Shown here: one piece after another, positions 8,381 to 39,983 of the stretch
How the letters are laid out: each line of letters opens with the position of its first letter
How positions within the stretch are numbered: position 1 is the stretch's first letter
Made by a program: the position numbers and the translations under genes
Notes under the pieces: model-generated
What the model was told of the DNA's origin: nothing
Seen by the model: the letters and a program-made list of their open reading frames with translations, nothing else
The model's database searches: none
From: Botryllus schlosseri
Lineage: Eukaryota
Assembly (NCBI GenBank): GCA_051294905.1
Contig: CM119371.1
Span: 8,620,001-8,684,000, forward strand
Length of the DNA stretch: 64,000 bases
Reading direction: 5' to 3'

Positions 8381-8966
8381 CATAGTGTCCTATATGGTGT
8401 CGACACAGGCAAATCTCAAGTCTCAGTGAAATTGTATCACGTCACAATTTCCATTTGGCTACAGGCAATTTGACGGTCATTTTTGACCGGCTTTCCGAGC
8501 ATTAAATTTGGCAAAACGTGTATCAATCGAAAGCTGACTCTGCACTGATTACGAAAATCTAAATTTTATTCCGCTCGTGGCCCTGGAACTCCCACAATCA
8601 GCCTCGAATTTTTCATTGTTATGGAGATTGGCATTGGGACGCAACAATGCTGTCTGGCTTTTTTTCTCTTGCGCTACTATCTCGTTTCGCCAGACAGCAT
8701 TGTTGCGTCCCAATGCCGATCTCCATAACAATGAAAAATTTGAGGCTGATTGTGGGAGTTCCAGGGCCACGAGCTGAATAAAATATATATTTTCGTAATC
8801 AGTGCATAGTCAGCTTTCGATTGATACCCGTTTTACCAAATTTAATGCTCGGCAAGCCGGTCAAAAATGACCGTCAAATTGCCTGTAGCCAAATGGAAAT
8901 TGTGACGTGATACAATTACACTGAGGCGTGAGATTTGCCTGTGTCGACACCATATAGGACACTATG
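8381..8966. mobile_element. Foldback (near-perfect hairpin) MITE, P-element-like ends
   Basis: 278-bp inverted arms 8381-8658 and 8689-8966, 30-nt loop, CATAG...CTATG termini, 7-bp TSD gtttgat. Confidence 0.9.
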
Positions 8967-21200: not shown

Positions 21201-24200
21201 CTAAAAATGTGAGTGGACCCTGCTGCCAATAAGTCGGCAGTGATATTTTAGTAATTAACATCGCAAGTGTCAGGGCCAGATTAATCGATTTTTTTATGTC
21301 CTTGCGACTTCACATTCCGAGCAATTCATTTTCGATATAATAATTTCGGAAATTACCTCGTGGGCCACTCAAAACCTTCTCGCAGGTCACTGGTAATCCG
21401 ACTCTGATATATATTGTAACCATATAGTAACAGAAGACAGGGAAACAATACACGCAAACAATTTAAACATTGATTTGATGAACGCACATGCGTCAGAAAC
21501 ATTAACGAGATTTTATATGCTGGCCACCCTCAATCAATTCATCAAAATTGGGGACGAAAGTTGGGTTTTCTGAAATATTCTGACACGTCAAAAAAAGCCC
21601 TACTAATCTCTAATCAGTGTCTAATCACCATCCGTGCACCCGACCTTTAGTCAAAGACAATTGTTCTGAATCTCGGGGCCGTTTGCCTTTATTCTTGGGA
21701 TCGCGAATAATTTAAATGTAATCAGCTTCCAAAATAGGCAGTCAGCAAGTCTGGGCATGATGACCTGTATTAGTAATCAGCTTATACGATTTTGAGCTGG
21801 GCCACGGAACATTTACTAATTGGAAATTGAGTCGCGACCATAATAGGTTAGAAACCACCGGATATGCAACCTGATGATGCATGTTATAGTAATATATGGA
21901 TGATCCAATATTATTGAAAAATCCATTGACATAACTTAACAACCAAACGCATATAGAAACCAGATGCATATAGGCTAGTAAGCCCCCTAAAAGTTGCATC
22001 GATTTGTCGATGGTGGGCCCAAGATCAGTGTTTTTTGGGTCTGAGCAGCGGTCCTACGGTGACAACACACAACCGCATAGCTTCACCAACCTAGCAGTAT
22101 AGCAGGTATGTCAAACACACGATTATTTCATCAGGACCGTGAAGAAATCTGTTGCCGACCGTAGCAATCACAGGAGCTCACATTAGAGATGGATCAATAC
22201 AGGACCCATGTTCCACTCCTGTATACTGTCGATAGGCAAAGATTTGCTCGTGTGACAAGATAATGCGATTTTCGCCTGATTTCGCTATATATAGATTGCT
22301 GTACGTCTATAAACGGTAAATCATTGTTACAGTACAGAACCTTAGGTGGGGCAACGCCCCAGTTGCCCAATAGGACTAGCCACCACTGCTTTTAATGATG
22401 TACTTGGAAAATATATTTTGCGAGTGTCTTAGATAGATTCGTTCGTTGTATGTGTAGAATTAGTTGTATTTATAATCGATAATTTAGATATTGTAGGAGC
22501 GCATTAGTAGGTAACATGGTGATGTTGCTGTCAGCATTGTGCGTCCTTGAGTTAATTCAAAACCCCAATCAGCCAATATATGAACAGCTCGCTACTTACA
22601 GAATCAAATTTGCATCCAGTTCTAAGAATCGGGACGACCGACTTTCATCCCTAATTTTGACAATGATGATGAGCAGCTTATATATTCTGGTCTATGTTTC
22701 TGACGCGTGTACGTCATCATCAAAGTAATGTTTGGTTTGTTTTAAATATAAAAATACATATATATATTATCCATTATGTCGGTAACTATATAATCAAAAA
22801 AAATATTGAATTTTGGCTTGATATCCAAATTTTATATAGTGCGGCCCGCCAATGGATTCAAATGTTCAATGAATCCAACGAGCTAAAAAGTTTGACCGCC
22901 CATGTTTTATGCTTAAGTAAAATTGTATTAAATAAACATTATGCGGATGTTGCAATTTATGTACTGCGAAGGCAGCTTTGCTGCATTTCATCCACCTTAA
23001 CATTGATTAGATGTTTTTGGTAAACGTATTCAGGACATGGATATCATCATTCCTCTATAACTCAAATGAATACACAGGGGTGATTATATTACGCTAACAA
23101 TATACTTCATAAATATATGTACTGCGAGTTTCAAAGTCTTCAAAGTGGCGAGAATACGACTACATTTCTAGGAAAGTACATCACCGAAAGCTCTATTAGC
23201 CGCCGAAACTCACCTTCATGAAGATGATCCGACGATTGATCGTAAATGATGCCGTACACGAATCTTCGGACAACTGACCATCGCTCTTTGTGAAGGTCCT
23301 CATAGTTAAAGACCACGAAGTCTAGGAGCGACATTTCAGCCACGAAGCCAGCTGCAAGGAATTCCTGCATACTTTGATGACAAAAATAAAAAATGAAACT
23401 GCCATCCAATAGATTGCAACTGAGAAGGTTATTTCCAGGAACCTTCATCATGAGATCTTTCACCTCTTCCTTTGAAATTCCAAACATGTTTAAATCATGC
23501 TCTAAGAATGACACTCTCCCTTCTTTCATGCCACGATAGGCCATCGCTTTCAATTTTTTGATAACTTCGGCGATGGCATCAGCTTGTTGTATGTTCCTCA
23601 CACTACTTAGAGTAGATACTATTTTTTTGTAGAGACCTGTGACCGTCTTAGGAGGGGCTTCGGTCGGATCTTTGGCCATTATCACTGCAGTTAAGACCAG
23701 AAAAACAGGAATGGAAACTAAATTGATCAACCTTGGTGACATCGTTTTTATCTTCTCCCATGCTTCATCCCCATTCTGACCTATTAGAAACACGAAAAGC
23801 TTGTTTGCGTCATCTAGGGTTAGGCCAGAAAGCGTGATGATTTCATCAGGTCGAGCTTCCACAGGTAAATCTGAGACTTGAAATTCTCGTGAAGATATGA
23901 CGATCTTTGTATCTGCGAGTAGATTACGTGAGAGGATATTGTACATGATCGTAGCCGCATCGGTTGCAGTATAAGGATTTATTTTCTCGTTGCCATCTCT
24001 GTTGATTCCCCACGTGGCCTGATCCAAGCCATCGAAAAATAAAACTGCTTCTGATTGATTTTCGAGCAACCACTGATATGCATGATCCTCGTCGATCTCA
24101 TTCTGAAAGAGGCCGCCAAAGAGAAATTTAGATGGTTTGATGAATTCTTTATGTCTCATGCCTTTCATTTCTATATAACGTATCAATTTGTACTTGAGCT

Positions 24201-25080
24201 CAGAGCTGCTAGCAATAGCTTCTGTATTAGTAAGAGAATGGCCTAAAGTTCTTCTAGCGATTCTGCGCATCAGAGTGGTTTTCCCCGATCCCGCAGACGC
24301 AACTATGGCAGTGATAGAACTTTCCTCATTGATAACTTGTTGCAAAACATCGTCAAGGGCGATGAATCTATTGTCGTCAATTTGTCGTCGGAGGAATCCG
24401 TACTCCTTTCTGAATTGATTTTTCGTGACTTCCTTAGTTTTCCAGAATAAAAACTTTCTCTTTGTTGTGACTTCCATGTCGTGCACCTCTTCATAATTGC
24501 CTTTGAAATACTCTGACCTGGTGACCCGCCTCATCTGGGGATGAACTTGAAAATCTGGTTTGCTGAGGTCCTCGTCGGCGAAGTCTTCGAGAATTTATCA
24601 GCCGTCGTTCTTGATGAATTTTTATTGATGGTTTGGATCAGACCTAAACACGAGTCTGTAAAATAGTATTGTTCGTGTATAGTGATATTTTACTAGTGAA
24701 AATGATGGTGTTCCAATGTTTAATATTTGTTTGTACTATTTCATGCGAAGACTTCCATATTCACGAAATATAGCATAAAGCAGACGGATTTAACCCGGGT
24801 TGTGTTTACCACTCGAGCGTGCGAAACATCAAAGCAAAGGTACAGCTGGAATGCGAAATCATTTATGAACTGATGCTCTGCTATATATCTAGATCAGGGG
24901 TCGCCAACGCGGTGCCCGCGAGGACTCGATGAGAAGCCCGCGATCCTGCTCTAAAAATAGATCGAAAAGCAGCATTTACCAATATTCTTCAGATCACTAC
25001 TAGTGAGCTTTAAAATATATAGATTGATTGATTTAGCTATTCTTTTGTAAATCACACTAACGTGTAACTTACAAATTATA

Positions 25081-25121
<41 letters not shown>

Positions 25122-28100
25122 AACCCTTAAAATGATGATATTAAATGTCCTCAATTACAAATAGTAATAGACCAACATGTAGTAGAATCACTTGATATCG
25201 AATACTTATAGACTACGGCGCACTGCCCATACTGGTGACATGACAGAATGCCATCCACGGTCTTCTTGAAATGGCGAGGGGTTCCGTTATGGTGGCTCGA
25301 CGTCCAGGACAATGCCATAGGAGTAAACAACATTACTATTCGGTAGCAGATAGCCGTGAAGCACTAGTAGATTTTCAATTTCTGGATGTCCATTACGGAT
25401 TGCAGCTATCGACACAGCTTGTTTCTCTTACACTCAGCCAGTTTAGTACCATGTTTCTAACTTTCCGTAATCGTGGCGGCTGTCCGGTATAATGAAATCT
25501 TTCAAGTCTGAATGATGAACAGTTGGAGATTGAAATTGTAACACTGCAAAAGGACCTCCACCTGAAAGCCCAACAAGCTCCAGCATCTACCGCAAACTAC
25601 ACGAATTTAAGCACTACTTGTCAACCTTAACCGTTCAACCAGACGTTATTCTTATTCAAGAATCCCATCTTGTCCAAAAGTACACACCGAAACCAGGGGG
25701 TCAACTAGCGGTGTCTTACAAAAGCCTAGAGGTGGGCCGTGCTATAAGTCGGCAGTTACGGAAAATAAAAAGAATATCGGCCTGGTGTAAATGACCATAG
25801 TAGTCGACAAACACCATGAATACCACAAACCAACCAACCAGGGGGTCAACTATTCCGCCGTGATACGACGGTGCACTCTGGCGGTATTGCCACTTTTGTT
25901 CGAGCATCGCTCAATGCGTCTCTTTCGAACAACGCCTCGTCATCCATTTTTGAGGTACTATGTGTGCGAGTAGGGAACTGCAACGTTTACATACCCCCGG
26001 ACTGTGAAACTACGGCTAGTGTTTTAGGATATTTGACTCTTTGTCATCACGCTCCATTATTTGCGGCGACTTCAAAGCACACCATTCCTCTTGGAGTCCC
26101 TCGACAAATGCACGTGGCAACCAACTTTGCGACATGATGGATAGAAACGACCTTGTCCTGCTGAATTCATCGTCACCCACTCGTATGAATGTTGCGTGTG
26201 ATGCCATCCATCGCTGGTCACTTCTTGACCTGTCGATGTCGTCTCGGGACATTGCGGCGAGATGTGCCACAACGGTAACCGACGAGCTCATAGGTAGTGA
26301 TCACGTTGTAGTCCAGACCACATACAATAATAGGGCGTCATGCAATTCATCAAAACGAAGATGGGATTACAGTAAGGCGAACTGGCCAGCCTTCTCGGCT
26401 GCTGCGGATTTCCACCTCCAATCCAACTTCGCTGCTATTGGGGAAACTGAAGCCCTCCACCGCCATTTCACGAATAGCCTACTTTTAGCGGCGCGAGAGT
26501 CGATCCCACGACCGAAAATATCAACGAAAATTGCCGTACCTTGGTGGAACGTGGAATGTATTCGTGCTGTGCGCAGGAAAAGGGCCGCTTCCTTGAAAAT
26601 GAAACGAACTTTTCACATTCGAGACGTGATCGCCTTCAAACGTATGAGATCCGAATGTCGAAAAAACATCCTTTCTGCTAAACGCAAATGTTGGGAGGAT
26701 TTTTGTGGTACATTAGACCGAAAGTCTGGCACGTTATGAGATCTATGTCGGGAGAGCATCTAGATCAGTGATTCCCAACCGCGGCCCTGCGGGCCGCATG
26801 CGGCCCCCAGCTAGCCTTCTTGCGGCCCCCACAAAAATATTGAGAAATCGATTTATGAAAAAAAATTAGATTTATAAAATACTCTTGCTTGGCTTGGAGT
26901 CTGGAGTTTTCAATTAGGATTGCAGGAAAGTTGTGAGTAGACTGCTAAGATTACGTCACTGCTGTTTCAATGCAATGTGCCCTAGCTTTCCAGTTGAACG
27001 GGCAGTACCTATAGATATAGGTATTGACAGGACCATACCTGCCGCATCCCAAGCCACCCAATTGGGATTTTTTCGCGCTGCGCGCGATTTCAAGTTTCCA
27101 AGTACCTTAATTATTCGGTACTCTTCGACAAAGATAAAATACGCAAAGACATATAGAAGTAGGCATATCGGCGCTGGCCATTACCGCGCCACGACGCACC
27201 AAGACATATGAAGTTTTAGGCCATGTAACATGCGACTCCTAGAAGCGTGCCAGAATGATCGGCAGCGAGAAAACCTTGGCCGAAAAGGACTGCCCTTACG
27301 CTGACCGAAAACTTCGTTATGTATATTCAAAATACATATAGGTATAATTGACCATAGGCGCCTGAATGACTGGCGCCGAATGTTCCTGTCTTGGCAATCT
27401 GAACGTCACGAGACAAATAGGCTACCATCCCGCAGGGAAAAATTATATGCCAGTGAAGAACTACCAATTTGAAATCGTGTGCATCTTTTAGTTTAGTATG
27501 TTTGGGCGATTCTATATTTCTTGATATAGCAGACTGTAGGTCACGAAATAACAAATAACACCAAGTAACGAAGTCGTACCAACGGGTTCACCCGTCCGAA
27601 TATGTTTAATTATTATTTACGGGCCCTACAGTTTCCAAGACACCTCACTCAGCTCTACCGGTAAATCTGATTACGTGAGCAAAGAGGATTAGCAATTGAT
27701 AGCAATATATATGCAATTGCCGATCTTATTGACCTATTTTATTTTGAATTATCGAAAATTTTCGCGCTCCATGCTGGCTCACTAAACGGGGATCCTGATT
27801 TCGTGGCAGAAGCGAACAACGGCACGGCGGGTCGGTTTATCACTCTATGGGAGCTAAGACCTAAGTGTTTTGGGGGGCCTGACGAAGTGCTGTTTTGTTC
27901 CCGCCAACAGGTATACGCCCGAAGATGTTTAATTATTATTGAGTGGTCCTACCTTTTCAAACACAACTCACTCGGCTCAACCGGTCAATCTGATTACGTG
28001 AGCAGAGAGAGGATAAAAATTGATACCAATATATATGCAATTCCCGATTATATTGACCGATTCAATCATGAATTTTATAAATTTGTCGCGATTAGTCGAG

Positions 28101-31100
28101 AGAAGCTGCCTAAAACGGACACCCGATTTAGATGATAAATAGCGGTAAATAGCCATCTAGCCGGAGGAGGTCTGGGGGCTTCGAAGTTCTGTTTATCACC
28201 CAATGGGGACCCAAGAGAAACGTTTTTTTGGGGGGGGGGCTGACGAAGTGCTGTTACGGCCCTTGGTATTGATAACTAATTTACGGATAGATGTGCAACA
28301 AGTGACTCACGATTGAATACGCCGAGATGCGTACTGCTTAGCAGGCAAAAAGCAGCATACTTTGTAATCCTATAGCTCGCGACCCAAGCGTCCGTATAAT
28401 TTGATATGTCGGTGTTTATCGAAAGCAAGTGTCGCACTGATTCCAAAAATACGAGTTGAAATCTCGCCAGGGCAATAAAACTACTCCGAAATAGCCAGCA
28501 AAGGTTGATTGTTCTGAACAACGGGAGCGCGGCAACACAATGGCCATTGGCGTCAAGCGAATGATCGGAACAAGGCCAATTTTCATATTTTGGCGACTAT
28601 TTTGGGTTCCTTTCATTGCCTTGGTATTCGTGCGGCCCCGGCCGTACTCTGAAATTCTAAATTTGGCCCTGCCACCGAAAAAGGTTGGGAACCACTGATC
28701 TAGATCTATGTCCATACCAACGCTGAAGTCGAACGGATCTATTTCACAAAATAACAAAACCAACGCCAATACACTTGCTTCACACTTCGCTAAAACGAGC
28801 AGCTCCGACAACTACCCAGCAGGATTTCGTATAACGAAGGCTAACTTTGAAAACACGGTTCATCTTACCGCTGACAACGAACCAGATCGGCACAGGAATT
28901 CGAACATAAACATCGCATTCAGTCTTCCCGAACTAAATCAAGCTTTGCGTAGCCGAAAATCCACTGCACTTGAGCAGGACTCCAGAGGGTATGCGATGTT
29001 AAAAAAATCCATCATCCTCCGGTCGCACCGACCTTTTGAAACTATACAATGCATCCTGGGATACTGGGAAATTGCCAGTCTCGTGGAAACATGCTATAGT
29101 CTGCCCAATTGCCAAAAAGGGCGAAGACCCTACCTCGGCGGACTCATACCGCCCTATATCCCTCACGAGTCACATTTGTAAAGTCATGGAGGTAATGGTC
29201 ACCAATCGCTTAAGATGGGATTTGGAGTCAAAAAATCTGATACATCCTTCACAATCCGGCTTCCGACGCGGTCGAAGCACCCTGGACAACATACTGCGTC
29301 TCCACGACACGATTTACAAGAATATCCACCATCAGCGATCGGTGGTAGCGGTCTTCTTAAACATAAGACGAGCCTACGATATGGTGTGGCGCCACGCACT
29401 TCTGTACGAACTATACCAACTCGGAATACGCGGACACATGCCCCAATGGATTACAAATTTCCTTTCTGACAGAACTTTCCAGGTTACCGTAAGAAACAGT
29501 CTTTCCGACAGTTACGTGCTGCAGAACGGTATACCTCAGGGAAGCGTCCTCAGCCCTTGCTGTTTGCGGTCATGATCAATGATTTACCGAGCTCGTTAGG
29601 TCATCGGTGTGAACATGCGCTGGTCGCAGATGACTGCGCTGTCTGGGATAGCGGTATTTTTATCCAGCCCCCTTTGTCTTCCATTCAATCATCACCCGAT
29701 GTAATAAGCGACTGGTGTTCCAGATGGGGGTTTACAATCAGTAAGGCCATGACCGTAGGCATGCTGTTCACGAAAAGGAAAATTCCTCCCCTCATCGTGA
29801 AAACTGGTGACCATGAACTTGAATTTGCCGACACCTACAAATATTTGGGTATCACGTTTGACAAATTGCTCAACTATAAGCAACATATCGATACGATTTT
29901 CAAAAAGTGATCCAACAGACTGAATCTAATCAGAGTCGTGACTGGTACCGCATGGGGGGGCGAGTAAAAAACCGTTGCTGCAGCTTTCCTGGGCGCTGAT
30001 ACGCTCATTGACTGACTATGGGTTACCAGCATATTACTTCGCCCAAAAAAAGTATTTGGACAGGTTACGTACCATACGAAATCAAGCTCTCCGCCTTTGC
30101 TGCGGAGCAATGCGCAGCACTCCCATTTGAGCACTGGAAGCATCATGTCACGAACTTCCTCTCCATCCACGCCACTAACAGCTTAGCCTTACCTATTGCT
30201 GTCACCAAGCTCACGAACACCCAACAATAGGAGTGCTTGAAGACTCTTGGCAGGAGATATATAGCCTCATGAACCCAAAATTCATTACCTTCAACATCAC
30301 CACCAATATCGAGGCTCTGAATAACCTTGTCCTGGAAAGAAGAACTCTTCAAGATTTACCTCCATGGCTGATGCAATCGCCTAACATTGATTTAGACCTT
30401 GCAAAAATCATTAAATAAGATGTCGAACCTCTGTCACATAAACCCACAGTCCTGGACTTCATATTCGAACGACATAACGATGCCACTGAACTATGCACTG
30501 GCGGCTCTAAATCAGCAGAGGGAGCCGGCTTTGCGTTTACCATCCCATCGCTGATGATAAACTTTTCCCAACCGTGTTCCACCCCAAAGTCAATATTCTC
30601 CATAGAAGCAAATAGTGGCGGCTCGTGACAATATCGGGTGGTGGGGCACGGGCTGCAAGCGACTTTTTATCATGATGTCGTCACAATGGCGTTTTCCAAC
30701 GTAAACAAGTAACTTAATGATGGTACGGTAACAAGAATTTCCCGACAACAGTGATTTTAACGTATGTGCCACGAGAGGTCTGCCGGTGAGCTGTGACTTG
30801 AAGTGTGGTAACTGCGTAAACGGCGTACGGAACAAAGATTCAACACGGTTCATGTTCGCACTTGACCTGACTAATTATCTGCTGAAATGGAAATAACTAT
30901 AACTCGAGAGATTGCGTAAGCCTAACTGGAAAGGTCAACGAGTTCGGACACATACGCAATTGTTATCTCATAGGTTGGGCCTGCCATATTGAATCCAAAA
31001 CATCATTCTGAAGAACTAAGAATAGCAGCCTCGGAAATTCGGTCTCGGTACAGCATAGGAGATTTTGGCCTTGAAACTGGAGACTGTAACACGACACATA

Positions 31101-34100
31101 CGGCTTTATTACTGTCTATAGATTTGCTGCGAAATCGCCTTTGGAAAATATATTACCGAATAAATACGTGGATGAAAGCCGTGCACTTAGTACACTGTTA
31201 CAGGACATCATCGAGAAGTAGCCTCATGGCCCTTTTCGGTATGGTACACTGTCAAAATTAATATGAACAGACCAACACTGAATTTTGCGTAAAATTTACT
31301 GAGGAATAGGCTTATCAAGTGATCAGCTGTTAGCCGCCATCGAAAACGAAATAGCTATCACGCTTGACAGAGGGTTGTAAGCAAATGGCTTGAAGTCCAC
31401 AATTTCACGGTTAAATTGACATTGGCGAATATAATATAAAAGTAAATATTTGAATGCAAACCGAGAATGTTAGTAAACTGTTTCATGATATCATCATCTC
31501 ATCACCTATCTCAGTATGGAACACAGTTAACGTTAGCACAGATACACCGGCTTTTGCGTGAAATCCGCAATGCGTTGTAGGCTAAAGTGTCAGATCAGCG
31601 CACATCTCTACCATACTCGACCTTGATAACGAAATTACTGCCCTAATCATTGAGTGTCAACCTTGAGACTGGACACAGCGTTCGATACTAAAATCAAGAC
31701 ATACCGTGCCAAAGCTTATGACGGATCTAGGTAAGGAGCAATGCCTCAGTTGCCCTATAGGACGAGCCGCCACTGGAAGCAAAAGCCATTCTCCACGCTC
31801 TAAAATGGATCTGCCAGAATGGCTCATACCGCCAAAGATACCTGATTCTCTCAGACAGCCTGAGCGTACTATCCGCTATGACCAACTTGCAGGCACAGCA
31901 AACGCAGAATGTTATATTTGAATGTGGTCGCTTGCTGAATCAAGCGATTCGGAAAGGCGCCATCGTTGTCCTGGCCTGGGTACCGGAGCATGCTGATATC
32001 GGTGTTAATGAGTTTGCCGATAAATTGGCTTGGCAAGCTGCCAGGACCGATATCGAGAATAGCCTTTCTCCGACTCTTCCAGACGAAATTAGCGACACTG
32101 AGGGGAAAGCCAAAGTACGTCAATACTGTAGAGCGAGCTGGAACGCCGAATATCATAGAAATGAGCGAGGAGGTCACTATCGAAATTTCCATAGATCATT
32201 GACTGATGGCCACTCTCCATCGATGCATCGACATAGGCTTCACGGACGAATAATATTTCGGCTTCGTTCAGGCCATTGCCGCCTGAAAACGCATTTATAT
32301 AAAATTGGATGTAGCGACACCGACCTATGCGACCATTGTACAGTACCTGAAACAATCGAGCATTTTTACTGCACTGCAATCGATATGATTTCCATCGGAA
32401 CTTTTTATTCGACGGGGCGCGCGAGCTCAAAATCACTGCAACACTCGAAAATCTACTGATCATCCCCGAAATGTTATCTCATGTTGCAGAGTTTGTTCTA
32501 TCTTGTGGTACTTACTTGTAAATCGGTTCTTGCCCACATTTTGGTATATCGATCGCACATTCTAGTCAGTGACGCACCTGCCCTCACACGCGAAAAGCGT
32601 CACTCCCCTTTTCATCAATGATAATAATAATAATAATATCTTTCCGTAATCGTGACGGCTGTCCGGTATAATGAAATCTTTCGAGTCTGGATGATGGACA
32701 GCTGGAGATTGAAATTGTAACACTGCAAAATGACCTACACCTGAAAGCACACCAGGCTCCAGCAAAACTTTGGTGCCTTGTTGACACGGAAAAGTACATT
32801 GGTGTATGCGCATCAGCTATAAGGTTTGCAAGCATGTTTGGTTCAGCTTATCGTTGTGAATCAGCCTTTTCGGGACATGAAATTCATCAAAAACAAACAC
32901 AGAACACGCTTCACTGATGCTCATCTGGAACACTCACTCAGAGTTGCCGTGTCAAGTTACTGTACCACAGTACAGCGCACTTGTTGATAGCGTGCAGTGC
33001 CAGGCTTCCCGCTGACTGATATAGGAACAGTTAACATGATGTCCTGATGTCCAGTCTAAAGTGTGACATGAATTATTTAAAAAATTGAGTTGACTGTTGT
33101 TGTGTCATTTATACAAACATGGTGCGAAGTAAGTCATGATTTCTTTAAAATCCTTAAGGGCTAGACTCTCTTATAAATCTTACCGCAATGTCATTCCTGC
33201 CCAGTGCTATGAATAGCAGAAATTCAGTCTTTTATGGATAAACGGAGGGAGTGAATGGTAGCCCGTCGTTTCACCCAGTACCGAAAAAGTAGCTCTTGAT
33301 AGCAAAAAGGTTGGTGACCCCTCATCTAGAAGGTGCTGGGTGGTGAATGCAATTCTGAAACTCTAAAGGCTTAATTGGGATTGATGTACATTGATGATCG
33401 TCCAAAAAAATATTAACAATTGGAGAGTAACTTCACAGAGGCTGTTCCAGTTGTCAAGTCGGTTTCTCAAGTGTAATTATAAGTAGTGTCGCATAATTCT
33501 ATTGAAGTAGGAATAGAAATATTGCTTGTCCCTGCATCCCAAAACTACTTCAAGCAAATGTAGAATTTTCTGTCTTTGAAATCTGCTCAAGTAAGTAAGA
33601 GGTTTAGAAAAGCTATCAAAGCTATCAAAAGCTCTCATTGATATGCTCTCTTGGACAATGAAAACCTGGCAACCGATATATGTGGATGGTGCAGAAACTG
33701 GGTTTGTGTTGCTACATATCATGCAAGTGGTATACGTTTCCAGCAGCATATGGATTCAGTCGCAGCACGTGATACAAATCATAGCTTCAGCACATTGGTT
33801 CTATACGTTTATATCCCAGTGCACCTCCTTGGAAGATGCCACTGTATGCCGCCCAAACTCGCATTCCGTAGCCCGTGGTAAACAAGAGGATGAGCGAAAC
33901 AGATGAGTTGTATCGGATATTACATTAGCGGTTTTAGCGGATAGGAAGGCAACTGAAAATATGTCAGATCGTATAATTTCAAACGTTGTGCTTACGCTAC
34001 TGCATGAAGCTGTTATATGGCGACTTTGTGGACAAACACTGTACACACGAACACGCAACATAGATTTTAATATATCAGAGATTTTCGTGAGAACACATAT

Positions 34101-37100
34101 ATTTCCCTCGAAGCATGACGGAAGTTCTGGACTCTCCTGGAAAACGCCCCTGACCATAGCTGCCTTGGCCACTTTCTCTCTCTTATGGTACGAACATAAC
34201 ACTTCTACTTGACAAACTAGATACAACACCATAGTAGCCGTTGCTATAATTTATAGAACATAGAATATTTATTCTGTATGACTCGAGTCGTTTCAACATT
34301 AGGTACAGCTCTAGGAAGTAAGTCACTATATGCAAGTTTGGTTGTCATAAATATCGAGTAAGACATGGACTTCGATTAATCAGCATAATATACTAATTGC
34401 TGCAAATTATAATTGCTACCACTAGAATTTTCTTGAATCACCAAACGTATTCTTGTTCCGGCCACATCAAAATGACGCTTGGCCTGATATCAGGATTTAG
34501 CCGATGTAGCCTGAAAGAATCATGATGTTCCTTCCGAATTTAATTCTGGCTTCGCTAATGGACTTTATTGGGCATGTTGTTTCATTGCTATCTATTGGCC
34601 CACCAGACTGTTCCGCCGATTCATATTCTGTATCCTGGCTGCATTTAAAACACGTTACCTACGCTTGGATTACATCTGTATCCATTATTTATTTCGACGC
34701 CATTTTCACTACATATTTGATTAAATGGCTCCTCGTACAGAACTTGAAAGTTACACTCAATCGAATGTCCACCACATTACATTTTTTTATATTGTTCGAA
34801 GCTTCTCGATTATCTCTATTCAAGAATAACCATTATTACCGCGGTAAATACAAATGATCAAATTGAAACAAAGCATTATCAATGGAAATGTTTATGACGT
34901 CATCTTTGACTATGGCGCTCGGAATCCAAATGCGACAATGAATACTGCAAAGCGGCACGGACATCGGCTTGGACTATCCATAAAATCACTGTATAGTGCA
35001 CATAGCGGGTCTCATAAAACTGTCAAAACATGTGACTGGAGGGATCTTAGCATGACTGGACAATAGGGCTGTTAAAAAATAAGTTTTTTTTACGGATTGC
35101 AGCCATTCACTTATTAAATTGTCAGGTTACCCTAAAAAACGCTGCACACCAAATTTGGTTCAATTCCGACAAGTATAGGACTCCGCAGATCCAATTAAAA
35201 TTTTTAATTTATTAGGAAAAATTGAAAAAAAAAGAAATTTCGAATTTTTCTGCCAACCCCATGAAATTGTTGAGCTGTCTTCAAAGTCCATGCAAAACAA
35301 ATTTGACTCAATTCCGACCAGTAGAAGCGGAGTTATGTGAGTTTTTCGTTGATAATTCTCGGATTATCCACCGATCTGAGATGGATATGGAGATGGTAAC
35401 CTGACAATTTAATCAGTAAATGGCTGGAATCCGAGAAAAAAAGTTGTTTTTGAACAGCCCTACTGGACAACCGAGACCGGTTTAATACTGTATGTGGAAA
35501 GCTACCATCACCAGTCTTTTTTTCTGAAATTCGGCCGATAACTTCAATCAATGTGTTTGCGAGAGAAGCCTTTAGTGAAGATTGTTCAGGATACGGGTGG
35601 TGTTCAGTATAGCTTCATTTTCTAATAACTTGAAATTTAATACTAGAGAGTAGGTTAGAGCTTCGCATGAGGAGGCCTGTACCAAATCTCCATATTCCGT
35701 ATAATCGCCCATAGGCAGTTCGATTTTGAAGTTGTACTGAACTTTGATGCGGAAAGTGTCGGTTAATACTGTATTGCCTATGACGACAGCGTGCTCCAAT
35801 CTGGATTTTGCGACATTGAGCAACCACGATCTTTTTATTTGTAAAACGCGATTCCCTACTGTAATACACAGTAAAACAGGACGACACTCACTCTGATCAA
35901 CGGTACTTGCTTCCCTTTCCGCATTCATCATGTTGTTGGTGACGTAATTCCGATCTCCAGCTACGATGTTAACCGTGCTCTTTATTAATTGTAAATTGGC
36001 GATTCCACCATCCGCCAGCGTTGCAGATCCTGAGTCACAAGATAATATTTTAATTCCGGCGATGTGGCGATGCATATTGGAAAAGTATTATATTTGAACA
36101 GCTTTTTGGAGGTACAGACCTTCAATATAGAATTGAATATGATATTCATATCGAAATGAACCCGTATCAGTGTTGGGATCGAGTCACTACCTTCGAGTCA
36201 GGAGTCATTTCGAGTCATTGCACATTTTGACTCGAGTCAAGTCAAGTCAATCCATTTTCGAAGGTGACTCGAGTCAAGTCAAGTCACTCGATTTTCGGAG
36301 GTGACTCGAGTCAAGTCGAGTCAAGTCAAGTCACGAGTCAAGTCACAATTCAAGTCAAGTTGCCTTTTTGAAGTATGAGGTATGATCACGTCATTGCATT
36401 TTGCTAGCTGTCTGGTTTACAGATTGGCAAGTGGTCATTTATTTTGAACCGATGACCGAATATAGAGTTAAATATACACGCAATAAGGCGCTGTCTTGTT
36501 CACATATACGTAGAACTGCTAAACTACGTAAGTAAGGGTATAGCCTCAGTTTATAGTTACCAGCTAAAATAGAAAATGGAGAAACGAATTGATAAGATGC
36601 AATGCATTACCCATTTACAAATTGATATGATACAATTTGAGCCTGGGCCAAGGGTTGAGGACTATATAAACTATATTCGAAAATCAATTTCAATACTACA
36701 AGAGGTTTGGTTAAGGTAAGAACAGAAAAAGACATTTTGCTATATTACTTCACTATACTAGTTTACGACAACGTAATAAGATGTAAGTTTCGATCACTTC
36801 GTTTGCGGTCAATTTATTTGTGAGAGAACAATGGAGGCTCAGTAAAACGCACGATCATTGAGTGATTGGTCGCTCTCACGGGTTACACCAGCGTCTCGCG
36901 AACAACCCGAACGTATGCAAGATACAGTGATTTTTATCGTCACAGATTACTTGATGACTTGAAATTGACTCGTGAATTTTGCTCCGAGTCACGAGTCAAT
37001 CCACATTTCTGATACGCCGAGTCAAGTCAAGTCAAGTCATTTTAGCAAAGTGACTCGAGTCAAGTCAAGTCATACGAAAAAGGTGACTCGAGTCATCCCA

Positions 37101-39983
37101 ACACTGACCCGTATATTTTCGGCTTAAACTCGTCAGGAATAATCGTCCGAAACTCGTAGAGAATTGGGAAGAAAATAGTATATCAACAATCGTATAACAG
37201 AATATGACGTCACCAGCCTGAAATTTCGAATGCGAGAGCATCCAATGTACTGTTTTTAGATGGTACATGAACTCTTTTTGTTGACACAGCCTTGGCTGGT
37301 GTATTTTGATACTGGTTGATCTACTAGTTCTCTTCTAGTTGGAGACGATTACCCCTGGCGAGTGTCAACCGAAAATATTCGGATTCATTTTAATATGAAT
37401 ATACTATTAAAAAAATATATATCAATAAATGCGGATATGACAATAGAAACGTCTTTGCGTTACATTTACTAGTACCGTGGTTCTCAACCTTTTTGACCTC
37501 GCGCCACTCTTTGAAAATGAAAAATAGTTCGCGGCACACTAGCACAGTGGTTCGGAACATTTTTTGACTTACGGCAGCTGCAAACTACCAGAACATTTAG
37601 CACAGTGGTTCCCAACCTTTTTGTCTTCATTCCCCACTTCAGATTTATTCCGAGCCTTCATTCTCCACCAGGACCGTAACAGCACCTCGTCAGCCCACCA
37701 AAAATTATTGGTCTTGGGCTACCCACATGGTGATAAACCCAACTTCTGGGGGGAGGGCTTCGAACCCCGTCAGTCCCCTGAGTCGGTACCCTTTTCCCTG
37801 TTACTTATCAGCTACATTTGGTCTACTGTTTAGTGCGTCGCCTTATTTCGACTAAACGCGCGAAGCGCGAAAAATTTATATAATTCATGTTTGAATCGGT
37901 CAATATTGTATGTAATTGCATATATCTTGCTATCAATTTCTTATCCCCTCTCTGCTCACGTAATTAGATTTACCGGTAGCGCTGAGTGAGGTGTGTTGGA
38001 AAAGGTAGGACCCCTAAATAAGAATTGAACATCTTCGGGCGGACCCGTTGGTATATTGACTTCGTTACATTATGCTATTTCGTGACCTCCTATATATGTC
38101 AAAAGATTTGGAAATCGCCCAAACTAAAAGGCATACACGATTTCAAATTGGTGTTGCTTTACTGACAAATAATTTTTCCCTGCGGGATGGCATATGTCCT
38201 GTGGGATTCAGATCGCCAGGACAGGAACATTTGTCGCCAGCCATTTAGCCGCCTATGGACAATTAATCATATAAGTATATTGTATATGTATCAAAGTTTT
38301 CGGTCACCACAAGGGCATTCCTTCTCGGCCAAGGCCTTCTCGCTACTGATCGTTCATAAGCCTTGGTGCGTCGCGGCGCAGTAATGACCGACGCCGAAGT
38401 CTCCATTTCTATAAATTCTACGGATTTTCGTGGGGGAAGGGTACCCAATAATCAAGATATTCGGCAATATTAAATCACGCACCCAGCGCAAAATATATTT
38501 TGCAAAAGTGGCATAAATTTAAAAAAAAAAACTCTATTATTTATGTTAATTCACGAAATAATTTTGGACCTATTCGAGCTCGCCCTTCCCCAATTGAGGG
38601 GTTTGGCGTGCGGCAGTTACGGTCCTGTTCCCCAATACCCAACACTTTTATCATCACAGAGCAGCTATTTGCTGGTTTGACTACACAAGACACACAACCA
38701 CACCAGTACGCAAGACAATCGCCTATAACTGCAACATAAAACGTGCTGTGAGCCGATTTTTCCGAAAGCGTTATTTCACGTCAAACTGTCGTTCTGGATG
38801 CGTTTGTGACGCCACCATTGGCCATCCATAGTTGAAAATGAGGTTTTGTGAACAATGCGCAATGTAATTTTCGATATATACATTCCAGAGCAGTTAACTG
38901 GTAACGGTAATTGCGCATGTGTCTCCGTCAATATGTAGACTGTCCTGTATATAATTTTGAACAAATGCGTCTCTTCCCCACCAGAAACCATTGAATTCCC
39001 CACCAGAATACATTGAATTTCCCACCAGTCGGGAATTCCCCACCGTTTGGGAACCACTGATTTAGCAGAACCCACAGTAGTAATGAGGTGATCTCTGACG
39101 AAGTACTTCTACCTTTTCGCAGCACGATGTTTCAACGAGATCGCAGCAGGTCAGTTATGTTTTAGCAGAGGTAATAGCTAAAAATTAAAAACCTTGCACC
39201 GAAACAGCGGGAGTTGTTCTTCTGAATTGCACTAGAACTGTAAACAAATGTTTGCGACCATAGCTGTGGAAGAAAGGAAAACGATTCCAATGTCTAATGA
39301 TACTACGTATACTTATTTGTGACATGTCCGCCGATATAGAAGATACCGTAATTTCTTCTCTGGAGCGGAGCAAAGTCTGCTTCAGTGTTCCGAAAAAGGT
39401 AGAAGTATTCGTCAGAGACCACCCGTTAATGTTTGTTATTCAAGTTTGCAAACTTGAACATCACTTCCAAAGGATTTCATTTCTCGCTGGTGATTAGGAA
39501 GACAACGAGGATTTGAAAACTGCAGTGTCACGTAGGCGCCGCCATAACTGCTATCCTCTGCGATCAGCAACCGTGCTGTGCAAACCTGAATTCAGTCCTT
39601 AAAGCACGCGATGGCATGGCAGGAATTTTGATTTGTCATATGTACAAACTTCACATCAAGTCTGATTTAGAATATTGATCCTTTGCTATAGACCAGAAGT
39701 ATTTTGCACATAATTTCAAATCTCTCGCGGCACACTTGCGAGACGTAAATGGCACACTAGTGTGCCGCGGCACACCGGTTGAGAACCACTGTACTAGTAT
39801 TAGGTCACGCAGAGTACGAATATTGTTATATCTAGCTAATTCGGAAAATATTTTATATGGATAAATTCGAAAAAATGAATAAGAACTGCTCTATTTCAGT
39901 GTTTACTTACCGCTTTCCCCGGGTGGTAATGATGTAGGCACATCAGCGACATCGTGACCTCCTTCGACGCCTTCTTCCGCCAT
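9182..39983 (-). CDS. Multi-exon NLR-like gene (RHIM-like N-terminus, NACHT, degenerate LRR); 3' end uncertain; possible frameshift near 24595
   Basis: GT-AG exons read by hand with compatible phases: 39983-39911, 36029-35892, 24655-23214, 20562-20258, then probably 12960-12859, 10621-10541, 10380-10213, 9934-9739, 9233-9182. NACHT motifs are unambiguous. Confidence 0.8.
9395..9700 (+). mobile_element. SINE family A (tRNA-like head, CAAC-type tail); other copies at ~3085-3205 (-), ~13600-13760 (+), 25708-25835 (+)
   Basis: B-box-like GGATTCGAGTCC; shared body ...gggccgtgctacaagtcggcagctacggaa...cctggtgtaaatgaccatagtagt...; ends caaacaacaac. Confidence 0.75.
9739..9934 (-). CDS. NLR degenerate LRR exon (IEYIRC...NSNLKKISLIHTS...ELEVLK)
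   Basis: Acceptor ccaccgcag|, donor G|gttagt, phase 0-1, inside ORF 9734..10006. Confidence 0.65.
10213..10380 (-). CDS. NLR degenerate LRR exon (VGLLDIAVNGQISTDDYKRIL...ACQQKK)
   Basis: 168 nt open, phase 0-0, acceptor catttaag|, donor AAG|gtatag. Confidence 0.65.
10541..10621 (-). CDS. NLR C-terminal (LRR-sized) exon MSKILLDCTQEENVDWSLIETNLEKYQ
   Basis: 81 nt, phase 0-0, acceptor gttcag|, donor |gtacga. Confidence 0.65.
10887..11310. mobile_element. hAT MITE
   Basis: TIR CAGGGGCGGGCAAC / GTTGCCCGTCCCTG; TSD agttagaa/agttcgaa. Confidence 0.85.
12190..12342 (-). CDS. Possible NLR exon (DSNLYFYRIH...ECKLEK); boundaries uncertain
   Basis: Acceptor ttgtcacag|, donor AAG|gtataa, inside ORF 12184..12411. 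An upstream acceptor at 12538 reads into stops. Confidence 0.35.
12859..12960 (-). CDS. Probable NLR exon (VVELTVGGWYVELKNEEEVIKISGRVVEGHFNTK)
   Basis: Acceptor tattcag|, 102 nt open in phase 0-0; donor gttgga is weak. Confidence 0.45.
13227..13510 (-). pseudogene. Possible hAT transposase C-terminal remnant
   Basis: ORF ...HLSAGLNISQYVDEDPEPRII resembles the region preceding the hAT dimerisation domain; judged by eye only. Confidence 0.3.
13926..18215 (+). repeat. Tandem duplication: unit 1 13926-17063 (with Chapaev3 inserted), unit 2 17064-18215
   Basis: Both units start ctagcgactatgac(a/t)tacccaatcgcgag and are collinear for ~1.15 kb with few differences. Confidence 0.92.
14479..16453 (+). 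mobile_element. Chapaev3 (CMC) DNA transposon, decayed
   Basis: CAC...GTG termini, TAA TSD. Broken transposase PPLHIKLGLIKQFVKAL...SEAK..GVFIGPQI...EQG.RLHQDI...RYQG...MMGDYVW at ~14996-15510. Right end internally duplicated. Confidence 0.85.
18002..18875. mobile_element. hAT MITE with GACTCGAGTCAAGTC subterminal repeats (same family as 36168-37106; truncated copy 16834-17063)
   Basis: TIR CAGTGTTG / CAACACTG; perfect TSD gcttatta. Confidence 0.9.
19420..19652 (-). mobile_element. tRNA-derived SINE family B (MetaSINE-like central domain)
   Basis: Minus strand: A box TAGTGTAATGG, B box GGTTCAATCC, followed by GGTCAAACCACAGACTGGAAAACTGGTATCC...GCTAGGCGCTCAGCA. Confidence 0.75.
20258..20562 (-). 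CDS. NLR HD2/first LRR exon
   Basis: Phase-1 acceptor matches the NACHT exon donor; LRR motif LKCLNLSYCNINDELLAII; donor CAA|gtgagt. Confidence 0.85.
21690..22255 (-). repeat. Diverged inverted copy of 17715-18001 + 18876-19150 (lacks the MITE)
   Basis: Reverse complement matches, e.g. gttgcatcgat...ggcccaagatcagtgtt, gaaaccagatgc, atcagcttc. Confidence 0.75.
23214..24655 (-). CDS. NLR NACHT NTPase + HD1/WHD exon
   Basis: ORF 23140..24534 shows Walker A ASAGSGKTT, Walker B LFFDGLDQ, sensor-1 ISSR, PVFL and WHD FCHQSMQEFLAA. Acceptor ttttacag| at 24656-57, donor G|gtgag at 23213. Confidence 0.95.
25081..25121 (+). repeat. (AC)n(AT)n compound microsatellite
   Basis: Direct reading. Confidence 0.95.
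25708..25835 (+). mobile_element. 5'-truncated SINE family A inserted in the LINE endonuclease domain
   Basis: 17-bp TSD aaccagggggtcaacta at 25691-707 and 25836-852; (CAAC)n tail. Confidence 0.9.
26766..28697. mobile_element. hAT (Charlie-type) non-autonomous element inserted in the LINE between EN and RT
   Basis: TIR CAGTGATTCCCAACC / GGTTGGGAACCACTG; perfect TSD atctagat. Confidence 0.92.
30613..31775. mobile_element. hAT (Tip100-like) non-autonomous element splitting the LINE RNase H domain
   Basis: TIR (T/C)AGTGGCGGCTCGT; perfect TSD gaagcaaa; RNase H reading resumes (EAKAILHAL) after removal. Confidence 0.92.
35064..35462. mobile_element. hAT MITE (TAGGG ends)
   Basis: TIR TAGGGCTGTT(A/C)AAAA; perfect TSD ctggacaa. 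Confidence 0.9.
35892..36029 (-). CDS. NLR exon encoding RHIM-like motif (GSATLADGGIANLQLIKSTVNIVAGDRNYVTNNMMNAEREASTVDQ)
   Basis: 138 nt, phase 1-1, acceptor tcttgtgactcag|, donor |gtgagt; lies inside ORF 35572..36075. Confidence 0.75.
36168..37106. mobile_element. hAT MITE with GACTCGAGTCAAGTC repeats
   Basis: TIR CAGTGTTGGGAT / ATCCCAACACTG; perfect TSD acccgtat. Confidence 0.92.
37475..39791 (+). mobile_element. Charlie/Buster-type hAT remnant with nested MITE
   Basis: TIR C(C/A)GTGGTTCTCAACC; TSD tactagta. Decayed transposase ~39150-39390 (SYVLAEVIAK...IPMSNDT...DMSADIEDTVISSL) of the ZBED5/Buster type. Confidence 0.85.
37603..39059. mobile_element. hAT MITE (same family as 60432-61492)
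   Basis: TIR CAGTGGTTCCCAA; perfect TSD atttagca. Confidence 0.92.
39911..39983 (-). CDS. NLR first coding exon (MAEEGVEGGHDVADVPTSLPPGES)
   Basis: Acceptor cattttcag just above 40027, ATG in context atcATGG, strong donor G|gtaagt; phase 1 matches the next exon. Confidence 0.7.

What the first reader, a model, noticed from the sequence alone, without database searches (positions are those of the whole stretch)
35892..36029. Animal NLR whose only apparent N-terminal signalling module is a RHIM-like amyloid motif
Seen: splicing 39983-39911 to 36029-35892 to the NACHT exon gives about 70 aa of low-complexity leader plus LQLIKSTVNIVAGDRNYVTN, with no room for a CARD, DD, DED, PYD or TIR in these exons. 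Established: human RIPK3 RHIM reads VNIYNCSGVQVGDNNYLT, so the IVAGDRNYVT segment shares G-D-x-N-Y-hydrophobic-T and an upstream hydrophobic strand, though the core is IVAG rather than (I/V)Q(I/V)G. Fungal NLRs signal through short N-terminal amyloid motifs (NWD2/HET-s; the RHIM-like PP motif), whereas typical animal NLRs use death folds. Inference: this could be a metazoan amyloid-signalling NLR that nucleates a RIPK- or MLKL-like partner on oligomerisation.
Basis: partly seen in the sequence, partly recalled or inferred. Interest (0 to 1): 0.9.

Follow-up and report, generated by a model that had tools for sequence, protein, structure and literature searches.

The report
Conserved short leader exon of sea-squirt NLR
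A sea-squirt immune-receptor (NLR) gene has a real, conserved 46-codon exon in front of its ATPase exon instead of the usual death-fold domain, but the exon does not pass any test for the RHIM amyloid motif and this gene copy carries a frameshift.

Summary
The sequence is as described. On the minus strand, an ATG exon (39983-39911), a 138-nt exon (36029-35892) and the NACHT exon (24655-23214) have canonical splice sites and matching phase 1. Exon 2 is a genuine coding exon. Four related copies in public data align over it and stop at the residues encoded by its splice sites. A profile built from those copies finds only this exon in the window (E 1.2e-12).

No death-fold domain was found in 298 upstream minus-strand frames. 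The host is an ascidian; the best NACHT relatives are Styela clava NLRs at about 35% identity.

The RHIM reading fails every test run here. None of the 5 exon copies has the Q of the core tetrad. The N-Y after G-D is not conserved. There was no Pfam RHIM match and no match to solved RHIM chains. Published surveys report no RHIM and no RIPK1 in tunicates.

The conserved core is NVN..F..S.VN(V/I)V(A/T)GD. It resembles a Styela NLR N-terminal module only suggestively.

An amyloid-like function remains an untested analogy. RNA reads gave no junctions. An A-run frameshift at 24596-24594 truncates the canonically spliced ORF at 111 aa, so this copy is a pseudogene or carries an assembly error.

The parts
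39911..39983 (-). Putative exon 1. Begins at an ATG with A at -3 and G at +4, holds 24 codons plus 1 nt, and has donor GTAAGT. A second in-frame ATG lies 4 codons upstream, and an in-frame stop lies a few codons further upstream.
   Evidence: Sequence only: there is no comparative or RNA support.
35892..36029 (-). Exon 2, 138 nt, phase 1 in and phase 1 out. It encodes the conserved N-terminal module.
   Evidence: Four related copies end at the splice-site-encoded residues. The HMM hit is E 1.2e-12 and unique in the window.
35953..35997 (-). Conserved core of the module, N11 to D25 of the exon. The window reads NLQLIKSTVNIVAGD. The family consensus is NVN..F..S.VN(V/I)V(A/T)GD.
   Evidence: Alignments A2 and A3. 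Invariant columns are S1 A2 L4 A5 G7 N11 G24 D25 E37 E39 Q45.
35935..35994 (-).
   Evidence: The N-Y is not conserved in the 4 related exons.
23214..24655 (-). NACHT exon. Acceptor TATTTTACAG| with the AG at 24657-24656, and donor |GTGAGT at 23213. It has Walker A (ASAGSGKTT) and an intact 484-codon frame from 24594 down.
24594..24600 (-). Frameshift site. Paralogue homology switches from frame -3 (..INKNSSRTTADK) to frame -2 (ILEDF..) at the A-run 24596-24594. TGA and TAA in the NACHT frame lie at 24600-24595.
   Evidence: The canonically spliced ORF stops at codon 111.
24545..24554 (-). Two weak phase-1-compatible cryptic acceptors, with exon starts at 24554 or 24545. Either would keep the NACHT frame open.
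   Evidence: Sequence only.
20270..20596 (-). Next downstream exon candidate, matching the region after the NACHT module of Styela NLRs.
   Evidence: tblastn, (E 1e-10 to 1e-4 for 6 of 13 query proteins).
26020..32459 (+). Decayed non-LTR retrotransposon (endonuclease, reverse transcriptase, RNase H frames) on the opposite strand inside the 11.2-kb intron between exon 2 and the NACHT exon. It is not part of the gene product.

Best explanation
Exon 2 is a genuine, conserved coding exon. It supplies the N-terminal module of a lineage-specific ascidian NLR: a short acidic leader, a 46-residue module, then NACHT. The module is a non-globular, beta-prone stretch with core NVN..F..S.VN(V/I)V(A/T)GD followed by a second hydrophobic run with an aromatic residue. 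It stands where other NLRs carry a death fold.

The most likely mode of action is inferred, not shown. NACHT oligomerisation would bring several copies of the module together. They would pair as beta strands into a homotypic assembly that recruits a protein carrying the same module. This is analogous to fungal and bacterial NLR amyloid-signalling motifs and to the amphioxus RHIM-NACHT proteins.

The module is not a RHIM by any sequence test. This particular gene copy may be dead, because of a frameshift in the NACHT exon.

My odds:
- real conserved exon, about 0.9
- spliced to this NACHT exon, about 0.7
- homotypic beta or amyloid-like signalling, about 0.25
- this copy functional as assembled, about 0.4
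For: Shown:
- Canonical splice sites and phase 1-1-1 across the three exons.
- Four related exon copies whose similarity ends at the splice-site-encoded residues.
- A unique HMM hit in the window at E 1.2e-12, spanning exactly residues 20-65 of the frame.
- NACHT membership.
- No death-fold hit in 298 of the 300 upstream minus-strand frames.
- The closest named relatives are Styela clava NLRs; all of the top 29 hits are from that species. Their gene models carry N-terminal regions of short N/Q/I/V/T-rich modules, or in P0006 and P0009 a Death-like domain at the same place (22.5 bits against a cut-off of 22.6). The N-terminus is therefore a swappable module slot.

Suggestive:
- Profile-profile alignment of the exon family with the Styela module GSAS..N(V/I)EI.ES.I.I(I/M)GG scored 18.2 over 25 columns. 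None of 300 column shuffles reached it (maximum 16.2).

Context from papers (passages read):
- Ascidian NLRs are described as lacking an N-terminal domain (PMC11508797).
- RHIM stands in the death-fold position of Branchiostoma NACHT proteins (PMC4262963).
Against: - No RNA support. Depth was about 0 on exon 2, and no junctions were listed in three RNA runs, of which only 6-13% was read.
- The four related exons lie on contigs of about 1 kb, so their link to a NACHT exon is unseen.
- The Styela similarity is fragile. The score drops to 12.5 (E 0.047, 21 columns) when the query alignment lacks the first G. Plain blastp gave 18.9 bits against a shuffle median of 19.2, and hmmsearch gave 3.0 bits against 2.2 on the reversed database, so both are at noise level.
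- There was no similarity to the Clavelina N-terminal motif or to the Styela N-terminal module of the MADQGQQQEGANIVNIQ... type. 23 of 100 and 17 of 100 shuffles respectively reached the observed scores.
- No partner protein with the module was found. The only other hit was an unrelated repeat protein at E 0.019.
- Nothing here measures amyloid formation. AlphaFold2 gave only low-confidence models, with pLDDT 52.6 for the exon and 29.6 for a Styela N-terminus.
- The frameshift at 24596-24594 means the canonical mRNA would encode 111 aa without NACHT.
Confidence: 0.35

Rival explanations
1. The exon encodes a disordered leader or a short linear docking peptide. It could be a beta-hairpin or strand that binds a folded partner, or folds back on the NACHT-LRR. 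It has no templating or amyloid behaviour, and signalling by this NLR runs through other surfaces.
For: - The monomer model has low confidence and almost no secondary structure (pLDDT 52.6).
- There is no sequence link to any known amyloid-signalling family.
- The best chance matches in solved structures are ordinary beta-hairpin segments of globular proteins, such as a plastocyanin strand pair at E 1.1.
- Charged residues (AEREA) follow the core.
- No partner sharing the module was found.
Against: - Conservation of a 15-residue N/V/I/G core across copies that are otherwise 45-51% identical.
- Its position in the effector slot of an NLR.
- Amplification of similar short modules into arrays in Styela NLRs.

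These points fit a self-associating element better than a passive linker. None of them is decisive.
Confidence: 0.35
2. One reading: a divergent but true RHIM that, on NLR oligomerisation, nucleates a RIPK-, ZBP1- or MLKL/HeLo-like partner.
For: - The window copy shows G-D-x-N-Y-V-T after a hydrophobic strand.
- The loosely defined insect 'cryptic RHIM' core is VxxG (passage of PMC13506858). VVAG or VVTG fits it in 3 of the 5 copies, and IVAG or ITAG fits as IxxG in the other 2.
- RHIM-NACHT proteins exist in amphioxus (PMC4262963).
Against: - None of the 5 copies has the tetrad Q. The N-Y is present in 1 of 5.
- No Pfam RHIM hit in 4 of 4 exon copies or in 13 of 13 ascidian homologues.
- No RIPK chain in the solved-structure searches.
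- Tunicates are reported to lack RHIMs (PMC4262963) and RIPK1 homologues (PMC12119088).
- VxxG is too degenerate to count as a test.
Confidence: 0.05
3. This locus is a decaying or unexpressed NLR paralogue. The motif is real in the family, but this copy makes no full-length receptor. This reading is orthogonal to the others: it concerns this copy, not the module.
For: - The 1-nt frameshift at the A-run 24596-24594, relative to all 8 closer paralogues (identity 35-51%) and the Styela proteins aligned there.
- The canonical spliced ORF stops at codon 111.
- RNA depth on the exons is near zero.
- The introns hold a retrotransposon and other repeats.
Against: - The 484-codon NACHT frame is otherwise intact, with Walker A and the conserved DGLDQ motif (Walker B region, by my reading).
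- A single-base change in a homopolymer is a common assembly error.
- Two cryptic phase-1 acceptors would restore the frame.
- NLRs are often expressed at low level, and only 6-13% of each run was read.
Confidence: 0.4

Closest known systems
Branchiostoma RHIM-NACHT proteins (e.g. BF82280; Kajava et al. 2014, PMC4262963, passages read)
   Same: Both are invertebrate chordate NACHT proteins in which a short non-globular motif occupies the N-terminal slot usually held by a death-fold domain. Both are predicted from sequence only.
   Different: The amphioxus motif matches a RHIM profile. The ascidian module does not: it has no Q-containing tetrad, no Pfam match and no match to solved structures. 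The same paper states that tunicates appear to lack RHIMs.
Fungal and bacterial NLR amyloid-signalling motifs (HET-s/NWD2, sigma, PP, BASS; PMC9815663 and 10.1101/2020.01.06.895854 seen in search listings only; PMC12261475 passages read)
   Same: All are short (11-30 aa) N-terminal motifs on a NACHT or NB-ARC receptor, rich in N, G, V and I, and flanked by unstructured sequence. The proposed logic is proximity-induced templating.
   Different: Those families are defined by the same motif on a neighbouring or co-encoded effector, and several have experimental fibril data. Here no effector with the module is known, no sequence relationship was found, and the organism is an animal with spliced genes.
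Styela clava NLR paralogues with N-terminal GSAS..NVEIKESNINIIGGE.. modules (P0021-P0026, P0064, P0028)
   Same: NACHT exons are 33-35% identical. The N-terminal module starts with GSA(S/T) and contains N-hydrophobic-x-hydrophobic..S.(V/I)N(V/I)(V/I)(A/G)G(D/E). The profile-profile score is 18.2, reached by 0 of 300 shuffles.
   Different: The Styela modules are longer (two pseudo-repeats), are repeated up to three times per protein, and are combined with other modules. The similarity is only suggestive (12.5, E 0.047 in a second run).
Canonical vertebrate RHIM (RIPK1, RIPK3, ZBP1, TRIF) and insect cRHIM
   Same: All are short beta-prone segments with a hydrophobic strand ending in G, and they act in an innate-immunity context.
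   Different: The core tetrad (V/I)-Q-(V/I/L/C)-G is not present, and flanking similarity is limited to the window copy. The cRHIM pattern VxxG is matched, but only trivially.

Membership tests
RHIM (Pfam PF12721; RIPK1/RIPK3/ZBP1/TRIF type) | Core tetrad (V/I)-Q-(V/I/L/C)-G (PMC13506858 and PMC12119088, passages) | tested here: not met
   The window has IVAG. The related exons have VVAG, VVTG, ITAG and VVAG. None of the 5 has Q at position 2.
RHIM (Pfam PF12721; RIPK1/RIPK3/ZBP1/TRIF type) | Match to the curated RHIM profile | tested here: not met
   No RHIM row at E up to 10 for the window exon or for the 4 exon copies of A2. None at E up to 5 in 13 ascidian homologues. HMMER filters drop many matches above E 0.1, so a very weak match could be hidden.
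RHIM (Pfam PF12721; RIPK1/RIPK3/ZBP1/TRIF type) | Sequence similarity to solved RHIM fibril cores | tested here: not met
   The single sequence and the 4-sequence profile were searched against 177,635 distinct PDB sequences at E up to 10. Only alpha-actinin (E 1.8), plastocyanin and cS26 (E 1.1) appeared.
RHIM (Pfam PF12721; RIPK1/RIPK3/ZBP1/TRIF type) | Conservation of the flanking G-x-x-N-Y-type residues | tested here: not met
   N-Y follows G-D only in the window copy, 1 of 5. An aromatic residue recurs 5-9 residues after G-D in all 5.
RHIM (Pfam PF12721; RIPK1/RIPK3/ZBP1/TRIF type) | A RHIM-bearing partner in the same organism | not testable with these tools
   No genome or proteome is held for this window. 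Papers report no RHIM and no RIPK1 homologue in tunicates.
RHIM (Pfam PF12721; RIPK1/RIPK3/ZBP1/TRIF type) | Forms amyloid fibrils | not testable with these tools
The monomer models have low confidence.
Cryptic RHIM (insect IMD pathway type) | Core VxxG (PMC13506858, passage) | tested here: inconclusive
   VxxG occurs in 3 of 5 copies and IxxG in 2 of 5. The pattern is too degenerate to discriminate.
Amyloid-signalling NLR systems (HET-s/NWD2, PP, sigma, BASS) | The same short motif on the receptor N-terminus and on a separate effector protein | tested here: inconclusive
   Searches with the exon found only 4 isolated exon-sized frames and one unrelated protein. Multi-exon animal proteins are poorly represented in those libraries, and no proteome is held.
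NLR (NACHT-LRR receptors) | NACHT NTPase with P-loop | tested here: met
   Pfam NACHT at E 3.1e-13, 50.3 bits against a cut-off of 26.7. Walker A reads GSGKTT.
NLR (NACHT-LRR receptors) | C-terminal leucine-rich repeats | tested here: inconclusive
   tblastn with 13 homologues found only one further exon (20270-20596) and no LRR exon at E up to 1 in the window. The homologues themselves have LRR_6 hits.
Death-fold NLRs (CARD, PYD, DD, DED N-termini) | A death-fold domain upstream of NACHT | tested here: not met
   No death-fold family was hit in 150 frames at E up to 0.05 or in 148 frames at E up to 0.001. Together these are 298 of the 300 minus-strand frames of 35 aa or more between 24.5 and 64 kb. 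A domain split over several small exons could be missed.

The most novel reading that the evidence does not exclude
Ascidians, a clade reported to lack RHIM and RIPK1 and whose NLRs are described as having no N-terminal domain, may have replaced death folds with their own short cross-beta modules.

Under this reading, three kinds of N-terminus would all be proximity-triggered homotypic beta-assembly (amyloid-like) signalling elements of a new, tunicate-specific family:
- the exon found here (NVN..S.VNVVAGD..)
- the Styela GSAS..NVEIKESNINIIGGE modules and the 33- and 69-residue arrays
- the invariant Clavelina N-terminus, which also sits on a NACHT-caspase fusion
Probability: 0.15. Interest if true: 0.8.

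Novelty: new variant of a known kind. Interest (0 to 1): 0.45.

Why it matters
How ascidian NLRs signal is unknown. Surveys file them as NACHT-LRR with no effector domain (PMC11508797). A conserved, splice-bounded N-terminal exon gives a concrete candidate for the missing signalling element. It also supplies a 15-residue core that can be mutated, synthesised and used as a genome-wide search profile.

If the module self-assembles, amyloid-type NLR signalling would extend to tunicates through a motif unrelated in sequence to RHIM. So far that mechanism is documented experimentally in fungi and bacteria, and predicted in amphioxus.

If it does not, the finding is an ordinary lineage-specific leader on a possibly dead NLR paralogue.

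Tried and rejected
- **RNA evidence.** No RNA holder was listed for the NACHT exon. Three bulk RNA runs of the same species label and one contig run were laid on 20200-40100. Depth was about 0 on exon 2 and 0.1-0.2x on the NACHT exon. No exon-exon joints appeared among those listed, with 445 more not shown. No indel was listed at 24594-24596, with 13 more not shown. Nothing can be concluded from this.
- **Own genome.** None is held.
- **Plain sequence links between exon 2 and Styela or Clavelina proteins.** blastp gave a best score of 18.9 bits against a shuffle median of 19.2 and maximum of 25 (50 shuffles). hmmsearch gave a top score of 3.0 bits against 2.2 on the reversed database.
- **hhalign to other modules.** The Clavelina N-terminus scored 9.5, reached by 23 of 100 shuffles. 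The Styela N-terminal module of the MADQGQQQEGANIVNIQ... type scored 9.64, reached by 17 of 100.
- **AlphaFold2.** Residues 1-530 of Styela P0024, which hold three copies of the GSAS module, were folded as a single sequence. Mean pLDDT was 29.6 and every residue was under 50. The exon with a 5-sequence alignment gave pLDDT 52.6 and pTM 0.16. Neither is informative, and no fold search was run on them.
- **ESM Atlas.** The best score for the exon was 0.79. There was no usable hit for the Styela module.
- **Earlier scan notes.** Only bacterial NACHT and RHIM-like cases turned up. None bears on this locus.
- **A VQVG tetrad in two Styela proteins.** It occurs in P0019 and P0062 (IVQVGD). I considered it as RHIM evidence and rejected it, because the paralogues aligned at that position read VIQAG, VIQVD and VVQAR, so it is not conserved.
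- **P0086.** E 0.019; dropped as an unrelated repeat protein.
- **Literature.** Searches, plus the passages read, turned up no description of a conserved N-terminal motif in ascidian NLRs. Supplements were not opened.
Full report
**What is in the sequence**

The gene lies on the minus strand.
- An ATG at 39983 opens a 73-nt exon that ends at 39911 before GTAAGT.
- A 138-nt exon runs 36029-35892, between ...TGTGACTCAG| and |GTGAGT.
- A 484-codon open frame (24594-23140) is a NACHT NTPase: Pfam NACHT at E 3.1e-13, 50.3 bits against a cut-off of 26.7.

Exon 1 ends in phase 1. Exon 2 starts and ends in phase 1. Exon 2 translates to SATLADGGIANLQLIKSTVNIVAGDRNYVTNNMMNAEREASTVDQ.

**The host**

The best NACHT relatives are the top 29 hits, all Styela clava NLRs at 29-35% identity. 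Next come Clavelina lepadiformis proteins at 26-29%. Thirteen unnamed genomic ORFs at 34-51% identity are closer paralogues or orthologues. The window is therefore from an ascidian other than these two species. No whole genome is held for it.

**Is exon 2 real?**

Yes.
- phmmer of the whole 171-aa stop-to-stop frame against 1.84e9 representatives gave exactly 3 hits (E 1e-5 to 1e-3). A profile search added a fourth.
- In all four, similarity begins at ..(C/Y)(V/I)(L/V)|GSA.., which is the translated pyrimidine tract and AG. It ends at ..Q|(G/S)EC, which is the translated GTGAGTG.
- Identity over all pairs is 55% in the exon (253/459), 80% in the three donor-encoded residues (24/30) and 10% in the following 12 residues (11/108).
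- An HMM built from the four outside copies alone finds one place among the window's 2,924 six-frame ORFs. That place is residues 20-65 of frame 35575-36087(-), exactly the predicted exon, at 44.8 bits and E 1.2e-12. The next best hit scores 4.5 bits.
- The exon does not overlap the dispersed repeats that begin at 36165.

**Is it joined to the NACHT exon?**

This is plausible but not shown.

Homology to paralogues in the NACHT frame starts exactly at 24594 (ILEDF..). The preceding conserved residues (..INKNSSRTTADK, compare MNENTIKATAVN of P0049) lie in another frame. The ancestral exon therefore starts further up, at the strong acceptor TATTTTACAG| (exon start 24655). That acceptor is phase 1 and so fits the exon 2 donor.

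The same comparison exposes a 1-nt frameshift in the A-run 24596-24594. With the canonical acceptor, the spliced ORF stops at codon 111. Two weak cryptic acceptors (exon starts 24554 and 24545) would keep the frame open.

Three RNA runs gave essentially no reads on these exons and no junctions. Neither expression nor the frameshift could be checked. The four related exons sit on contigs of about 1 kb without a NACHT exon. Exon 1 has no support beyond its own sequence.

**No death fold**

None of 298 minus-strand frames of 35 aa or more between 24.5 and 64 kb hit a Death, CARD, DED, PYD or TIR family. Two of the 300 frames were missed by my batching. The five sub-threshold hits are to unrelated families, all below their cut-offs.

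This agrees with a published survey that files ascidian NLRs as NACHT-LRR without an N-terminal domain (PMC11508797, passages).

**Is it RHIM-like?**

Every test I could run says no.
- The defining tetrad is (V/I)-Q-(V/I/L/C)-G (PMC13506858 and PMC12119088, passages). The five exon copies read IVAG, VVAG, VVTG, ITAG and VVAG, so none has the Q.
- The G-D is invariant. The N-Y that made the window copy look like RIPK3 is absent from the other four copies, which read GDQILAN, GDQINAN, GDLINV and GDQIHGN.
- There was no Pfam RHIM row for the exon copies or for 13 ascidian homologues.
- No RIPK chain appeared in two searches of solved-structure sequences.
Only its VQVG tetrad is confirmed, by PMC12119088.
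- Tunicates are reported to lack RHIMs (PMC4262963) and RIPK1 homologues (PMC12119088). This weakens the proposed RIPK partner.
- The loosely defined insect cRHIM core VxxG is matched, but it is too degenerate to mean anything.

**What the module looks like**

The family consensus is GSA.LAEG.NVN..F..S.VN(V/I)V(A/T)GD, followed by a second hydrophobic run with an aromatic residue and an acidic tail ending in Q. As a monomer it gets only low-confidence models.

In Styela, the gene models of the NACHT relatives carry N-terminal regions built from several kinds of short N/Q/I/V/T-rich modules. Some are amplified into arrays, such as 33-residue units in P0005 and P0007 and 69-residue units in P0016. 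P0006 and P0009 carry a Death-like domain at the same position, scoring 22.5 bits against a cut-off of 22.6.

One Styela module, GSAS..N(V/I)EI.ES.I.I(I/M)GG.., aligns with the exon family:
- The profile-profile score was 18.2 over 25 columns. None of 300 column shuffles reached it (maximum 16.2).
- The score falls to 12.5 (E 0.047) when the query lacks its first G.
- Simpler searches see nothing.

I count this as suggestive only. Clavelina NLRs share a different, nearly invariant N-terminus (...SNVNITDAVLNQSPVIKDAENVTINY...), which is also present on a NACHT-caspase fusion (P0030). It shows no detectable similarity to the exon.

**Mechanism**

Shown:
- a conserved, splice-bounded exon in the effector slot of an NLR locus that has no death fold
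- a beta-prone, non-globular composition

Inferred by analogy with fungal and bacterial NLR amyloid motifs and the amphioxus RHIM-NACHT proteins (PMC4262963):
- clustering by NACHT oligomerisation drives homotypic beta-assembly and recruitment of a partner with the same module

I give this about 0.25. A passive leader or an ordinary docking peptide is at least as likely. No partner was found. The complex predictor was unavailable, and nothing here measures fibril formation.

**Novelty and verdict**

An animal NACHT protein with a short amyloid-type motif in place of a death fold is already in print for amphioxus. The lack of an N-terminal domain in ascidian NLRs is also in print. What is new is a defined conserved exon and motif in that empty slot, in a clade said to lack RHIM. 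I found no description of it in searches.

The RHIM label does not. The amyloid idea is open. This copy may be a pseudogene.

Noticed in passing
window 24594-24600 (-): A one-base frameshift in an A-run near the 5' end of the NACHT exon. The upstream 20 conserved codons are in another frame, and TGA TAA precede the NACHT frame. This is either a pseudogenising deletion or a homopolymer assembly error.
   Followed up: partly
window 26020-32459 (+): A decayed non-LTR retrotransposon inside the 11-kb intron, on the opposite strand. Its frames hit endonuclease (53.6 bits), reverse transcriptase (88.9 bits, split over two frames) and RNase H (27.5 bits). Its copies elsewhere are transcribed, with RNA depth up to 20x at 30.8-31.5 kb, all carrying fixed differences from this copy.
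   Followed up: partly
window 36165-36530, 7199-7565, 18545-18851 (inverted), 37011-37094: A dispersed repeat family carrying AGTCA pentamer runs. It starts 136 nt upstream of exon 2. It is very abundant in the DNA contig run and is present in RNA reads at 5-20x.
   Followed up: no
window 8381-8966: A 278-nt inverted repeat, 96% complementary, with a 30-nt spacer. It is a foldback-type element, and both strands give the same ORF translation.
   Followed up: no
window 25707-25830 and 9568-9691: A short repeat with very high RNA read depth (14-36x), many reads starting at 25707, and poly-A loose ends at 25771. It looks like a transcribed SINE-like element in the intron.
   Followed up: no
Styela clava proteins P0005, P0007, P0016, P0024, P0078: The N-termini of these NLR gene models are long arrays of short N/Q/I/V/T/E-rich units: 33-residue units repeated four times in P0005 and many more times in P0007 and P0078, 69-residue units repeated four times in P0016, and GSAS modules repeated three times in P0024. 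No Pfam family was hit in the N-terminal arrays of the three scanned here (P0005, P0016, P0024); P0007 and P0078 were not scanned. A single-sequence AlphaFold2 model of one (P0024) was uninformative.
   Followed up: partly
Clavelina lepadiformis proteins P0030, P0067-P0080: About a dozen NACHT proteins share a nearly invariant 45-residue N-terminus. One of them, P0030 (1280 aa), also ends in a caspase domain (Peptidase_C14, 63.6 bits). That is an NLR-caspase fusion.
   Followed up: no
Styela clava proteins P0006 and P0009: Close NACHT paralogues of the array-bearing NLRs carry what looks like two tandem Death-like domains at the N-terminus. Pfam Death scores 22.5 bits against a cut-off of 22.6 on the first. 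The N-terminal slot of this family is therefore modular.
   Followed up: no
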